A stretch of DNA of 62,066 bases, from the NCBI GenBank assembly GCA_037137535.1, contig JBAXKC010000013.1, positions 1-62,066 of the forward strand, given 5' to 3'. A program made the position numbers. How positions within the stretch are numbered: position 1 is the stretch's first letter; every line of letters starts with the position of its first letter. This stretch comes from a bacterium (GTDB lineage Bacteria > Cyanobacteriota > Vampirovibrionia > Gastranaerophilales > JBAXKC01). This document shows, piece by piece, positions 3,001 to 6,000 of the stretch.

Positions 3001-6000
3001 GAACCGTAAAGAGCAGATTCTCTTTGAAGATCTTCCCTTTTTTTAACAGCTTCTTCAGGTGAAATCAGACCTGCGTTAAAATCGGCATCAATTGTCATCT
3101 GTTTCCCCGGCATAGCATCAAGAGCAAATCTTGCAGATACTTCCGCAATACGTTCAGAACCCTTTGTAATTACCATAAACTGAACAATTGTAATAATTAT
3201 AAAGATTACACCACCAACAACCATGTTGCCGCCTGTAACGAAAGTCCCAAAAGCGTGAACAGCCGCTCCTGCTTCACCTTTTGAGAGAATTAAACGTGTT
3301 GAAGCAATGCCCAGTACCAGTCGGAACATCGTTCCGATAAGAATTACAGACGGAAATGCCGCTAATTCAAGAGGTTTTTGTACATAGATCGCAATCATTA
3401 AAAGAATGATACCAAGCGAAATATTTAATGTAATTGAAAGGTCAACCGCTATTGGTGGAAGGTCAATAAGTAACATTACAATCATGAGAAGGACAAATAT
3501 CGCGAGGATAGCCTCACTCATAGGAATCATTGGTGGTGCGCCTTGTTGTCCTTTACTCATTATTTACCTTATATCCCTGATTCAAATGCTTTTTCAAGTA
3601 TTAATAATTGTGTTGTAAATGTTGCGTCAATCATTCCGCTGGTTGTTTCTACTATACAACAACCAGGCTCAATAGTGTCATCTTCAGTTACGCTGACTTT
3701 TGAAGAGGATTTAAAATATGATGATAATTTTGGTAAATTCATATTGATTATATCAGTATCTTGAGTATTGGCTTTAATTGTAATACTGCTATGCTCTTTG
3801 CCCAGTGTTTTTAATACATCAGAAACAATATTCATTATAATTGTGTCATCGCAAGCCACTTCTGTTTTTATTATTTTTTCGGCTACTTTTATTGCTATGG
3901 TTGCTATTTGATTTGAGTATTCACTCATTGCTCTTTCTTTTGCTTCCACAAGTTCGCTTATAGCAATTCCTAATTTTTTTAATTCTTCTTTTGCTTCTGC
4001 CAGTCCGTATTCAAAGCCTTCTCTTGCTGCTTGTTCTCTTATTACATTTGATTCTTCATGTGCTCTCGAAATAAGGTTTCTGTCATCAACCCTTCTATAA
4101 CCTCTACGTCTGTCGCCTCTTCTTCTTTCTTGTCTTTCCTGTACTACAGGCATTGCTTTAAAGAAGGAATCCATAGCAGGTGCGGGTGGTCTTTCCTCAA
4201 ATTTAGGCATAAGAGCTGTTTCATCTTCTTCATGATGAAATTGTTCTTGTATTTCTTGCTCATTAGGCACTTCTTCAAGTGATTTCTTTTTCTTTTTTAT
4301 AATCATTCTTGTTTTATTCCCTGCCTTTAAGCTGACAATCCACTTCTAATGTAATTATAAACGATTTTAGAAATAGGGTTTGAAAGTATATGTTGTCCAT
4401 TGATGTCAGGTTCAGGTAAAAGACAGTTATGAACATATTCTTTAACCTTTTCTCTTTCATTTTTTACAGTATTTAATATTTCTTCATCTGTATAAAGTTT
4501 ATTAAAGCTTTTTATATTTACCATTACCGCAGGTATTTTAGATTCGATTGCATTAAATTTATATTTAAACTCATTTAAGTATTTTAGAGCTACTGACGCA
4601 TCAAGTTTTTGATCTAAATCTTTAATATTCATAAAATTTCTTATTTGATCAGATTGTTCAACAGGCATTCCTGTTAAAATCCTTTCGGCTTTTTCTTTAG
4701 AGAAAGTTGTTAATAACAAAGCAATAGCAGCCATTTTCATTGTCGTTGATTCGTCTTCAGGTAATCCGACAGTATTCGCTTTTGCCATTTCATCAATGTT
4801 TGATTGACTTAGTATTGCATTTACATGCTCTTTGGGAATTTTACCCTGAATAGAAAGATCATTGATTGTTTTCTCATAAGTTGCTTTTACTGTGTCTTCT
4901 ACTGTTTTAACAGCATCCTCGGGGCTGAATCCCTGCAATTGTGTATTTTTAGCTGTTTCAAATACTGCAAATGCCAGAGTTTGAAGTACATGATCCCAGC
5001 AATCATTTGGTACGCTCGATTTCATAAGGTCTACACTTTTGTGAAAAGTCCATTCCCCTATAAATTGGCTTATCATGCATGCTTGTTCAGAGTTTAAATT
5101 CAAATTAGAATCTTTGTTTATTGCATCTCCTGCAAGCATGCAGAATTGATAAACTTTGCTTACAATATAATTTTTTTGATCATTATTAAAATCTGGTGGA
5201 GAAAATTCACTCGCCTGTTGAGCAAGATTTTTTGCAAATTCTTGTGGGTTAAATCCTTGTATAGGCATAATTTATCCTTAATTTGTTTCTATCCAGCTTT
5301 TTAGGCTTGTTGCAAATTCTTCTTCGTCAAATTCATCATCTACATCATCTTTAAGCGATTGAATAGTTTCTTTTAATGTTGTTATTGCAGGCGGTGGAGC
5401 TTGTTTTGTTGTTGCAATAGTGTGATGAAGCTCTTCTTGCTTGTTTTGAAGTAAAGAGGCTCTTTCATTGGCCTCTCTGATTTGATGTTCTTGTACTTGT
5501 GTTCTTTCAATCAGTTCTTCAATGTCTTTTTGTTGCTTCATCGCTGCATTTTTTACTTTATTTCCAATGAAGACAAGTCCTACTATAAGTCCAATTCCAA
5601 GTAATACAGGTAATGTCCACCAAGGATTTCCGCTATCTTCTGATTTAGGAAGAACTTCGGGTCTTTCAGAGGCTAATCCGGGGCTTGATGATTCATCAAA
5701 GGCTATTTCTACTGAATCTGCTCTTGCTTTTGGGTTTGCTGCACGAGCTACAAGCGTTTTAAGAGTTTCTTGCGTCAGATCGGCAGGCATTGCTCCTTTT
5801 GTGATTGTTACAGCAATTGAAATATCTTCTGTCATACCTGGTTTTTTAAGCTCTGAAGTAACTGTCTTACCCGCTGCAAAGCCTAATTCCTCGGCAGTTC
5901 TGGAATATCTTCTATTTGATGATGATTCTGGCGAAGCCGGTAAGCTACCCGGAATATAAGTACTTACAGCTGAGCTGAACTTATTTCTGTCTGCTGAATT

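What a model noticed while it worked through the whole genome (the two positions that open the first line are those of the whole stretch)
4327..5268. A lineage-specific protein takes the place of FliG in set B
Between fliH and fliF of set B, where flagellar operons carry fliG, lies g1304 (313 aa), which has no Pfam or NCBIfam family. It is conserved next to FlhA_B across the order. Its N-terminal half (about 170 residues) recurs fused to FlhA_C in g2002 and as short stand-alone paralogues in relatives. Its C-terminal half shows only faint likeness to the FliF-binding FliG_N domain. Set B thus appears to keep an MS-ring partner without the torque-generating parts.
Evidence so far: g1304 has 0 families. 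Orthologues occur in 39 of 41 genomes and in 28 of 28 of high quality; they adjoin FlhA_B in G028 and G008. The profile against the PDB has FliG_N 5wuj_B as best hit, E 0.32, residues 184-240. hhalign against the genome's own FliG aligns the AIALLL...A..IL ARM motif at probability 2.6%. The Atlas gives nearest clusters as Melainabacteria 'hypothetical protein' and FliG_N/M clusters at 0.80.
(Added by a program. Inside this text positions count along the whole contig: contig position 1 is position 1 of the stretch shown here. "Call 12" and the like, gene names such as g00115 and contig names such as C1 are that model's own, and its searches are not shown. The text may have been shortened before it was handed on; [...] marks where a part breaks off. 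The agent that wrote the report below was given it as the finding of a first reader that could run no searches.)

Follow-up and report, generated by a model that had tools for sequence, protein, structure and literature searches.

The report
Torque-less FliG relative in second flagellar set
The gene in the fliG position of a second flagellum-like gene set in Melainabacteria encodes a cut-down FliG relative that keeps the ring-linking parts, lacks the motor part and carries a new front domain, in a machine that survives in relatives with no flagellum.

Summary
Window 4327-5268 (-) is a 313-aa gene packed between fliF and fliH of a second flagellar core set ("set B"). It reaches no Pfam or NCBIfam threshold.

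New here:
- It folds confidently (pLDDT 87.5) into two domains.
- Residues 170-313 align colinearly with FliG residues 8-192 (FliG_N plus the start of FliG_M). hhalign gives probability 83%, score 35.7; 30 column shuffles reach at most 6.7.
- In a fold search of the C-half, the only 7 of 48,161 chains with Z>=5 are all FliG.
- An ER(P) motif (R 97/97, E 96/97) aligns with FliG's EHPQ motif.
- No FliG_C (torque domain) is detectable.
- The N-terminal 166 residues match no known family.
- The fliF-X-fliH(-flhA) order holds in 14/14 and 6/6 related loci.
- In one family of the same order, X is present in 32/32 genomes, while FliG_C and flagellin are in 0/32.
- Set B also has a FliM-like protein.

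Best reading (about 0.65): a FliG-derived adaptor that links the MS ring to a FliM-like platform in a non-rotating, flagellum-derived type III apparatus. Binding is inferred, not shown. It is a new variant of a known kind.

The parts
4327..5268 (-). g1304 ('X'), 313-aa CDS in the fliG slot of set B
   Evidence: ORF list; translation; 88 homologues at E<=0.001; no Pfam or NCBIfam family
4771..5268 (-). N-terminal domain, residues 1-166: bundle of long helices, no known family. Also found fused to FlhA_C in a paralogue and as stand-alone paralogues
   Evidence: AF2 blocks mostly pLDDT 87-97. VIA-wide gives only generic helical matches, top CMV IE1 at Z 10.1. Atlas finds only Melainabacteria hypothetical clusters. 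hhalign against FliG parts gives <=2.2%. Paralogues. A99 97/97 and Q96 92/97 conserved
4531..4755 (-). FliG-type ARM domain, residues 172-246 (K..AAxALLL motif). Aligns with FliG_N in the colinear alignment
   Evidence: VIA-wide on the C-half: 5wuj_B FliG_N Z 6.9, 3hjl_A Z 6.6, 4fq0_D Z 5.8. hhalign: FliG_M 88.9%, FliG_N 45.4%. K178 92/97 and A183 93/97
4330..4530 (-). Residues 247-313: aligns with the start of FliG_M and ends there; no FliG_C follows
   Evidence: hhalign of X 253-309 against FliG_M positions 2-58: probability 88.0%, P 3.1e-6
4450..4458 (-). Residues 271-273, ER(P) motif (ERE in this protein), aligned with E-N/H-P of FliG's EHPQ motif
   Evidence: E 96/97, R 97/97, P 57/97 in the X family. 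Aligned to FliG E132 (19/19), N/H133, P134
5278..6924 (-). FliF_B (MS-ring protein), 548 aa
   Evidence: YscJ_FliF 8e-30 and YscJ_FliF_C 3.7e-12
5281..5415 (-). FliF_B C-terminal tail (last 45 residues): helix, acidic run, then a conserved ..SWIE.. end. Proposed docking site for X
   Evidence: W invariant in 21/21 tails printed and 14/14 in A2
3569..4306 (-). FliH_B
   Evidence: PF02108 4.3e-21
1446..3560 (-). FlhA_B
   Evidence: FHIPEP 5.3e-212. TIGR01398 FlhA 670 bits, below its cut-off of 772
60..1409 (-). FliI_B
   Evidence: ATP-synt_ab 2e-80 and T3SS_ATPase_C 3.3e-25
7122..10372 (-). Upstream genes of the same operon: FliE, SLT transglycosylase, FlgC, FlgB and two FlgF/G-like rod genes
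   Evidence: Pfam

Best explanation
g1304 ('X') descends from FliG. Its C-terminal 145 residues correspond to FliG_N plus the first part of FliG_M. The torque-generating FliG_C domain is gone, and a new 166-residue helical domain has been added at the front.

Proposed mechanism. The FliG_N-like ARM domain docks on the conserved C-terminal tail of FliF_B under the MS ring. The short FliG_M-like part, with its invariant E-R(-P) motif, holds the FliM-like protein of set B (410 aa, encoded next to fliOPQR_B). That protein in turn carries FliH_B and FliI_B. Without FliG_C and without stators, the assembly cannot turn in the known way. Set B is therefore read as a static, flagellum-derived type III export apparatus made of an MS ring, an export gate and a rod. 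X plays the adaptor role that FliG plays in flagella and SctK plays in injectisomes.

Shown: the gene, its position, its conservation, its two-domain fold, homology of the C-half to FliG, no detectable FliG_C, and persistence of the system without FliG, flagellin, FliM (Pfam), FlgI or MotA_N.

Inferred: both contacts, the lack of rotation, and export as the function. The role of the N-terminal domain is open. My guess (about 0.3) is that it faces the export gate and is a docking module, because a paralogue carries it in front of a soluble FlhA_C.
For: Position. X sits between fliF and fliH with gaps of 9 and 20 bases. The same order is seen in 14/14 f2 loci and 6/6 loci of families f3, f6, f10 and f12. 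In 18 further loci an X ORF was found in 18/18, with a FliH_B-like ORF beside it in 16/18 and a FliF_B-like ORF in 12/18 (short flanks).

Homology to FliG.
- Profile of 73 homologues against the PDB: best hit FliG 3hjl_A, E 0.0052.
- Class-wide profile of 61: same best hit, E 0.0036.
- Pfam on single members at E<=1: FliG_N 19/73 (best 1.3e-5), FliG_M 18/73, MgtE_N 37/73.
- hhalign of the 97-sequence X family against 19 FliG of the class: global alignment of X 170-313 with FliG 8-192, probability 82.7%, P 1.1e-6, score 35.7. The reversed control scores 0.9. Thirty column shuffles give mean 2.8, sd 1.7, max 6.7. The local score is 41.0 against a shuffle maximum of 16.9.
- As a yardstick, FliG_N against FliG_M gives 94.1%.

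Fold. The AF2 model of the C-half has pLDDT 86.3. VIA-wide finds 7 of 48,161 chains with Z>=5, and all 7 are FliG. The top 7 Foldseek rows are also all FliG, but with E>=0.56.

Motif. E271 96/97 and R272 97/97 align with FliG's E-N/H-P-Q.

Partners. The FliF_B tail ends in a conserved W, 21/21. The set B 410-aa protein family aligns with the genome's own FliM over 227 columns (probability 88.5%, P 2.7e-6), including the GG.G / LT.lE stretch.

No motor parts. In f2: X 32/32, FliG_C 0/32, flagellin 0/32. In 99%-complete f2 genomes: FliM 0/5, FlgI 0/5, MotA_N 0/4, but FliMN_C 5/5.

Previous mentions. Gastranaerophilales genomes with only 'a subset' of flagellar genes are reported in PMC4040986 (passage read). 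A 2026 preprint says these genes are 'postulated' to serve secretion (10.64898/2026.04.24.720558, passage read).
Against: - No contact has been shown. The FliF and FliM contacts rest on homology to FliG alone.
- g1304 itself reaches no curated family threshold (FliG_N 13.1 bits against 25).
- Fold scores are middling (Z 6-7), a range the tool warns is common for helical proteins. Foldseek E-values are not significant.
- By sequence, the ARM part resembles FliG_M more than FliG_N (88.9% against 45.4%). Which repeat it descends from rests on colinearity.
- g1304 has ERE, not ERP, and the Q of EHPQ is not conserved.
- The FliG_M-like part is shorter than a full ARM_M.
- The FliG profile was built from one class only (Neff about 2.8), and no secondary structure was scored.
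- ExbB/TolQ-type stator relatives were not excluded in f2.
- In families f5, f7 and f8, relatives of FlhA_B (42-49% identity) and of the FliM-like protein exist, yet X was not found with these profiles and the gene order differs. X may not be universal to such systems.
Confidence: 0.65

Rival explanations
1. X is still a rotor protein. The new N-terminal domain replaces FliG_C and engages an unrecognised stator (for example an ExbB/TolQ-type or other ion-driven unit), so set B rotates a rod or another structure.
For: The N-domain is strongly conserved (A99 97/97, Q96 92/97) and its partner is unknown. Set B keeps a full rod, FliE and a lytic transglycosylase. The own genome has a second MotA_N gene on C21. 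Other MotA/ExbB-family genes were not searched for in f2.
Against: MotA_N was found in 0/4 f2 genomes at 99% completeness, while X is in 32/32. The N-domain shows no likeness to FliG_C (0.3%). In f2, no flagellin (0/32) and no FlgI (0/5) were found for anything to turn outside the cell.
Confidence: 0.08
2. X is not FliG-derived. It is a lineage-specific helical protein with a generic ARM/MgtE_N-like repeat, and it acts as a chaperone, regulator or export-gate accessory that merely sits at this place in the operon.
For: No curated threshold is reached. MgtE_N is the commonest weak Pfam hit, 37/73. Fold Z-scores are only 5.5-6.9. More than half of the protein (the N-domain) has no relative.
Against: The alignment is colinear over 138 columns and spans two successive FliG domains, far above reversed and shuffled controls. 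All 7 chains with Z>=5 are FliG, not MgtE (8gps MgtE Z 3.6). Among the genome's own 6,336 ORFs, the best non-self hit of the C-half HMM is its FliG (E 0.018). The slot is exactly that of fliG.
Confidence: 0.12
3. Set B is a decaying remnant of a duplicated flagellar system, and X is a degraded fliG on its way to loss, with no function of its own.
For: Set B lacks many flagellar parts. In f2 its genes are scattered over contigs. Earlier papers call it an incomplete set that would not make a functional flagellum (PMC4040986, passage read).
Against: Intact ORFs of similar length occur in 73/73 f2 genomes and in f3, f6, f10 and f12. Residues are invariant in both domains. tblastn pieces of FlhA_B are 79-86% identical within f2 over query residues 39-263, and whole-ORF BLASTP gives 64-70% in other families. 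Only one stop inside a match was seen, in 1 listed match (G082). RNA-library contigs match parts of the operon, including 4754-4965 inside X, but DNA carry-over is not excluded.
Confidence: 0.04

Closest known systems
FliG (flagellar rotor/switch protein; e.g. Aquifex aeolicus 3hjl, FliF-FliG complexes 5wuj and 5tdy, FliG-FliM complex 4fq0)
   Same: Same gene slot between fliF and fliH. The C-half aligns colinearly with FliG 8-192. ARM fold. The K..AAxALLL helix and an E-R(-P) motif align with EHPQ.
   Different: No FliG_C, so none of the charged residues that meet MotA (MotA-FliG pairs are named in the abstract of PMC7564593, seen in a search listing). The FliG_M-like part is shortened. An extra 166-residue N-terminal domain is unknown in FliG. 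About 21% identity in the alignment. No Pfam threshold is reached.
SctK (YscK/OrgA/PscK), the injectisome adaptor between inner ring and sorting platform
   Same: Same operon position, between the FliF/SctJ homologue and the FliH/SctL homologue. Same proposed job: a static adaptor between ring and platform. A preprint found a hidden chlamydial SctK by fold plus SctJ-K-L synteny and notes likeness to FliG families (10.1101/2025.03.14.643159, passages read).
   Different: No sequence match to SctK Pfam families for g1304 at E<=1. No SctK chain appears among the listed fold rows. The ring here is a FliF-type protein with a C-terminal tail, not SctD with FHA domains. The rest of set B scores higher on flagellar than on injectisome models.
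MgtE_N (cytoplasmic N domain of the MgtE Mg2+ channel)
   Same: Weak Pfam hits in 37/73 family members. That MgtE_N is a relative of the FliG repeats is recalled, not tested here.
   Different: No CBS or channel domain. The fold match to MgtE is only Z 3.6, against 5.5-6.9 for FliG. The genomic context is flagellar.
'Myxo'-type ancestral non-flagellar T3SS (Abby and Rocha 2012, PMC3459982; abstract and passages read)
   Same: At the level of the whole system: a conserved type III system that lacks the elements needed for motility and is argued to work in protein translocation.
   Different: Set B keeps the rod genes flgB, flgC, flgF/G and fliE, and a FliF-type ring, which that paper uses as flagellum-specific markers. 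It therefore looks like a separate derivation. No tree was built here.

Membership tests
FliG | Gene lies between fliF and fliH in a flagellar-type operon | tested here: met
   14/14 and 6/6 related loci
FliG | Reaches the curated Pfam score for FliG_N, FliG_M or FliG_C | tested here: not met
   FliG_N 13.1 bits against a cut-off of 25. No FliG family at E<=0.01. The genome's own FliG passes all three
FliG | Homology to FliG_N plus FliG_M by profile-profile comparison, with controls | tested here: met
   Global hhalign of X 170-313 with FliG 8-192: probability 82.7%, score 35.7; reversed 0.9; 30 shuffles max 6.7. PDB profile best hit is FliG, E 0.0036-0.0052
FliG | ARM-like fold of the FliG repeats | tested here: met
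   All 7 chains with Z>=5 out of 48,161 are FliG; best is 5wuj_B at Z 6.9, rmsd 4.7, 74 aligned. The scores are middling
FliG | EHPQ(R) motif of FliG_M, the FliM-binding site (function recalled, not from a call) | tested here: inconclusive
   E 96/97, R 97/97 and P 57/97 align with E-N/H-P. The Q position is not conserved, and g1304 has ERE
FliG | FliG_C domain with the torque helix that meets MotA | tested here: not met
   FliG_C in 4/73 members at E<=1, best 0.039. hhalign against FliG_C: C-half 10.6%, tail 0.2%, N-half 0.3%. The protein ends about 40 residues after the ER(P) motif
FliG | Binds the C-terminal tail of FliF | not testable with these tools
   Indirect only: the FliF_B tail is conserved, W in 21/21
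SctK | Gene lies between the inner-ring gene and the sctL/fliH homologue | tested here: met
   SctJ-K-L order as described in 10.1101/2025.03.14.643159 (passage read)
SctK | Sequence match to the SctK Pfam families (YscK, OrgA_MxiK, HrpB4) | tested here: not met
   For g1304 at E<=1 only Imm48 and MgtE_N are listed (part A)
SctK | Fold like a solved SctK | tested here: inconclusive
   No SctK chain is among the 50 rows listed for the whole model or for the C-half. The N-domain was not folded and searched alone
MgtE_N | N domain followed by CBS pair and MgtE channel | tested here: not met
   No CBS or MgtE domain. MgtE_N E 0.045, 14.7 bits against 25.9

The most novel reading that the evidence does not exclude
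Set B is a second, independent conversion of a flagellar type III system into a non-rotating envelope machine. Every sampled gut Gastranaerophilales-type genome of family f2 has kept it after losing the flagellum. X is a natural FliG-to-SctK-like transitional form: it keeps the FliF-binding and FliM-binding parts of FliG, has lost the torque domain, and has gained a docking domain. That N-terminal domain would also bring soluble FlhA_C paralogues (such as the 595-aa fusion on C27) to the export gate as extra substrate-docking modules.
Probability: 0.3. Interest if true: 0.85.

Novelty: new variant of a known kind. Interest (0 to 1): 0.68.

Why it matters
How the injectisome arose from the flagellum is usually argued from a single lineage of non-flagellar T3SS. 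This system offers a second case. It is widespread in Melainabacteria and still has rod and MS-ring genes of flagellar type. Its FliG has been reduced to the ring-to-platform linker and given a new domain.

Two gains would follow if the reading holds:
- A natural dissection of FliG into its assembly role and its torque role.
- An explanation for why non-flagellated gut Gastranaerophilales keep a 'partial flagellar gene set'. This has been noted since 2013-2014 (PMC3787301, PMC4040986), and a recent preprint says these genes are only 'postulated' to serve secretion (10.64898/2026.04.24.720558).

In the gene list of PMC3787301 (section 36, passage read), the gene between fliF (G0021) and fliH (G0023) carries no name. 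That is this protein's position. The papers' supplementary tables and figures were not seen and may name it. In my four full-text searches I found no paper that describes it.

Tried and rejected
- Complex prediction of X 168-313 with the last 45 residues of FliF_B gave no answer. Scores were 0.46, 0.50 and 0.46, but one unrelated control scored 0.51. It counts neither for nor against binding.
- Whole-protein Foldseek against the PDB found nothing at E<=0.001. The two domains had to be treated apart.
- Foldseek on the C-half ranks FliG first, but all E-values are >=0.56.
- The N-domain has no known relative. VIA-wide gives only generic long-helix matches. The Atlas gives only Melainabacteria hypothetical clusters, plus a sub-threshold lead to Vpar_1526 (PF28206) at TM 0.54. 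hhalign against FliG parts gives <=2.2%.
- Pfam on six X proteins of other families found nothing, except FliG_M at 6.3e-5 (23.6 bits, under the cut-off) in one.
- The representative-library search with the C-half profile returned 195 hits at E<=0.001. The 150 listed all look like family members or fragments, and the last 45 are not shown, so I cannot say whether FliG proteins appear among them.
- I tested whether stand-alone N-domain paralogues sit beside FlhA_C genes. They did not in any of the 9 stand-alone loci; the tenth locus is the fused form. In 5 loci they adjoin an ORF of 721-772 aa (the one scanned has no Pfam family). In 3 of these, ORFs of 389-390 and 437-459 aa follow; Pfam-scanned in one locus, they are a response-regulator/ParA-like ATPase and a T2SSE ATPase.
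- In families f5, f7 and f8, X was not found with profile A1 at E<=1e-5. It is not beside the FlhA_B-like gene in 4 loci.
- The first hhalign runs used a FliG alignment in which 2 of 21 rows were not FliG (wrong-strand ORFs). They gave weaker figures (global probability 48.5%). They are replaced, which uses 19 verified rows.
- The profile of the 410-aa protein against the PDB found only its FliN-type C-terminal domain.
- RNA-library contigs cover only 13 of 30 bins of the operon. The uncovered parts say nothing, and DNA carry-over could not be checked on a silent stretch.
- The store of earlier findings was not open.
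Full report
**The gene and its place.** Window 4327-5268 (-) is an ATG-started ORF of 313 codons. It starts 9 bases after the stop of the upstream gene and ends 20 bases before the start of the next.
- Pfam names the row on the minus strand: two FlgF/G-like genes, FlgB, FlgC, an SLT transglycosylase, FliE, FliF, then this gene, then FliH, FlhA and FliI.
- The gene itself reaches no family. Pfam gives only Imm48 at 16.1 bits against a cut-off of 25, and NCBIfam gives nothing.
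- The genome (81 contigs, 2.95 Mb) has one canonical FliG of 342 aa on contig C36, within a first core set (FlgB, FlgC, FliE, FliF, FliG, FliH, FliI).
- It has two full FHIPEP genes, two FliP and two FlhB.
- The remainder of set B lies on two other contigs. C7 carries a 410-aa FliMN_C protein, FliO, FliP, a long FliQ, a small T2SS-T3SS_pil_N protein, FliR and a TPR protein. C21 carries FlhB followed by a FliA-like sigma factor.
- Set B proteins score highest on flagellar NCBIfam models, but FlhA, FliI and FliF fall below the equivalog cut-offs.

**Conservation.**
- A word-indexed search found 88 proteins at E<=0.001 among 811 candidates. They are 236-361 aa long and 28-71% identical. The few names given are Melainabacteria or Gastranaerophilales hypothetical proteins.
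- In a sample of 151 genomes of the class, 61 have a match. Family f2 (same order) has full-length matches in 32/32. f3 has 2/2 (G001 full-length; G008 only a 54-position piece at a contig end). f6 has 11/17, f10 14/14 and f12 1/1; there the profile hits mostly cover only the C-half, inside ORFs of 350-437 aa. f4, f5, f7, f8 and f9 have none.
- A class-wide alignment of 61 proteins aligns the N-domain too, with a low-complexity insert between the domains in the longer forms.
- In a phylum sample, the C-half profile hits 73/73 f2 genomes and 0/127 genomes of other families, most of them outside the class.
- The order fliF-X-fliH-flhA is kept in 14/14 f2 loci and 6/6 loci of f3, f6, f10 and f12. 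In 18 further loci, X was found in 18/18, with a FliH_B-like ORF beside it in 16/18 and a FliF_B-like ORF in 12/18 (flanks of about 1.6 kb, ORFs >=150 aa).

**Structure.** With the 73-row alignment, AlphaFold2 gives mean pLDDT 87.5. The model has a bundle of long helices (residues 1-166), a low-confidence linker (168-171) and a second helical part (171-313).
- The whole model gives nothing significant by Foldseek.
- In the exhaustive VIA search, the N-domain draws only generic helical matches (top CMV IE1 at Z 10.1). Four listed rows confined to the C-half are FliG chains.
- Folded alone with a 30-row class-wide alignment, the C-half has pLDDT 86.3.
- For the C-half, only 7 of 48,161 representative chains reach Z>=5, and all are FliG: 5wuj_B (FliG_N in the FliF-FliG complex, Z 6.9, rmsd 4.7, 74 aligned), 8umd_B (Z 6.7), 3hjl_A (Z 6.6), 4fq0_D (Z 5.8), 5tdy_D (Z 5.7), 3soh_B (Z 5.6) and 1lkv_X (Z 5.5).
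- The seven best Foldseek rows are also FliG, but with E>=0.56.
- These scores are middling for helical proteins. What carries weight is that the top of the list contains only FliG.

**Sequence homology to FliG.**
- Profiles of the family find Aquifex FliG (3hjl_A) as the best of 177,635 PDB sequences, at E 0.0052 (order-level profile) and E 0.0036 (class-wide profile).
- Scanned singly against Pfam at E<=1, 19/73 members touch FliG_N (best 1.3e-5), 18/73 FliG_M, 37/73 MgtE_N and 4/73 FliG_C (best 0.039).
- Among the genome's own 6,336 ORFs, the best non-self hit of a C-half HMM is its FliG (E 0.018).
- I then compared a 97-sequence X alignment with 19 verified FliG proteins of the class using hhalign. 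The global alignment pairs X 170-313 with FliG 8-192 over 138 columns: probability 82.7%, P 1.1e-6, score 35.7. The reversed FliG alignment scores 0.9. Thirty column shuffles give mean 2.8, sd 1.7, max 6.7. The local score is 41.0 over 133 columns, against a shuffle maximum of 16.9.
- Piecewise, X 170-246 matches FliG_M (88.9%) and FliG_N (45.4%). X 247-313 matches the start of FliG_M (88.0%). Neither half matches FliG_C (<=18.9%). The N-domain matches nothing (<=2.2%).
- As a yardstick, FliG_N against FliG_M scores 94.1%.
- Earlier runs used an alignment with two non-FliG rows and gave weaker figures. They are superseded.

**Motifs.** In the colinear alignment, the K..AAxALLL helix (K178 92/97, A183 93/97) falls on the first ARM helix of FliG_N. 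The family's most conserved C-half site is E271 (96/97), R272 (97/97) and P273 (57/97; E in this protein). It falls on E132 (19/19), N/H133 and P134 of the class's FliG, which is the EHPQ motif. That this motif is the FliM-binding site, and that FliG_N binds the FliF tail, I recall from the literature. The PDB titles of 4fq0, 5wuj and 5tdy agree in kind.

**Possible partners.**
- FliF_B ends in a conserved helix, an acidic run and a ..SWIE.. end. The W is invariant in 21/21 tails printed and 14/14 in alignment A2.
- The 410-aa FliMN_C protein of set B has relatives in 51 of 61 class genomes.
- Its family profile aligns with the genome's own FliM over 227 columns (probability 88.5%, P 2.7e-6). 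The alignment places its LGGKNG...LTKLE stretch on FliM's LGGIG...LTDIE.
- By PDB sequence search only its FliN-type end is seen, and Pfam FliM is not matched.
- So set B has a FliF tail, a FliG-like linker, a FliM-like protein, FliH and FliI. That is the chain that would carry an ATPase complex under an MS ring.

**What set B lacks.**
- In family f2 (32 genomes, all about 99% complete), X is present in 32/32, FliG_C in 0/32 and flagellin in 0/32.
- In f2 genomes at 99% completeness: FliMN_C 5/5 (one ORF of about 400 aa), FliM 0/5, FlgI 0/5, MotA_N 0/4. The own genome, searched alongside, has 2 MotA_N.
- In an order-level sample, f2 genomes have one T3SS ATPase and two Flg_bbr_C matches each. 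Most genomes of the other families have two ATPases and four or more Flg_bbr_C matches.
- The system therefore works without FliG, without known stators and without a filament. It is not a spare-parts store for set A.
- This matches earlier remarks. Di Rienzi et al. list 13 flagellar genes shared by all four Melainabacteria, including flgG, flgG, flgC, fliF (G0021), fliH (G0023), flhA and fliI; G0022 is unnamed (PMC3787301, section 36 passage; section 17 read whole). [quoted passage not shown] A 2026 preprint says about 25% of Gastranaerophilales have complete sets and the rest keep genes 'postulated' to serve secretion (10.64898/2026.04.24.720558, passage).
- None of the passages I read describes this protein. 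Supplementary files were not seen.

**Mechanism.** X is best read as a FliG derivative that kept the assembly half of FliG (the FliF link and the FliM link), lost the torque half and gained an N-terminal domain. It would serve as the static adaptor of a flagellum-derived type III apparatus.
- Its operon slot is also the slot of SctK in injectisomes (between SctJ and SctL). A recent preprint found a hidden chlamydial SctK by fold and synteny and notes likeness to FliG families (10.1101/2025.03.14.643159, passages).
- I found no sequence or fold match to SctK, so the parallel is functional, not membership.
- The contacts are inferred. The one complex prediction allowed gave no verdict (see Tried and rejected).

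**The N-terminal domain.** It remains unexplained. It recurs in front of a soluble FlhA_C in a 595-aa paralogue on C27, and likewise in G111. It also occurs as stand-alone ORFs of 226-314 aa in f2. These stand-alone copies are not next to FlhA_C genes.

**Expression.** Contigs of an RNA-seq library from the sample that may be the source of this DNA match the operon at >=99% in 13 of 13 laid pieces. One piece lies inside X (4754-4965). DNA carry-over is not excluded.

**Verdict.** X is a new variant of a known kind: a torque-less, N-terminally extended FliG relative. It sits in a conserved, non-flagellar descendant of the flagellar export apparatus.

Noticed in passing
G000 contigs C2:107681-109057(+), C34:182-1675(+), C60:3193-4608(-), C27:25204-26991(-): Four ORFs (458, 497, 471 and 595 aa) carry only the cytoplasmic part of FlhA (FHIPEP profile positions about 270-655), behind N-terminal parts without a Pfam family (for C27, the g1304-type N-domain). 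Only the C27 ORF has the g1304 N-domain. Soluble FlhA_C paralogues are unusual.
   Followed up: partly
L076, L078, L079 (f2 genomes G119, G070, G005): Stand-alone N-domain paralogues follow a conserved ORF of 721-772 aa (the one scanned, in L075, has no Pfam family). In these three loci, ORFs of 389-390 and 437-459 aa come next. The L076 pair was Pfam-scanned: a response-regulator/ParA(CpaE)-like ATPase and a T2SSE-type ATPase. This hints at a link to a Tad-like system.
   Followed up: partly
G000 C7:22268-22693(-) (L013:6269-6694): A 141-aa protein with a T2SS-T3SS_pil_N domain (weak VirB9 NCBIfam hit) sits between fliQ_B and fliR_B. FliQ_B is unusually long at 164 aa.
   Followed up: no
G000 C21:48383-49069(+): A FliA/WhiG-like sigma factor (228 aa) lies directly after flhB_B. 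It may be the regulator of set B.
   Followed up: no
window 10509-11444 (-): A 311-aa ORF with no Pfam or NCBIfam family heads the set B rod operon. It has a 27%-identical counterpart at the same place in G001.
   Followed up: no
Families f5, f7, f8 (e.g. G020:C2, G025:C2, G006:C1, G010:C91): Genomes of f7 and f8, where no FliG_C or flagellin was found, still have one FlhA 42-49% identical to FlhA_B and a relative of the FliM-like protein. The gene order differs, and X was not found with my profiles.
   Followed up: partly
G000 C21:14813-15022(+): A second MotA_N-bearing gene (274-aa frame) lies away from the set A motor genes on C1.
   Followed up: no
G025:C15:3000-3872: The FliM-like gene of this f7 genome has one in-frame TGA inside the match.
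   Followed up: no
window 11958-14775: Beyond the AT-rich gap upstream of the operon (GC 0.27-0.29) lie a STAS-domain protein, an acyltransferase_3 and an OprB-family porin.
   Followed up: no
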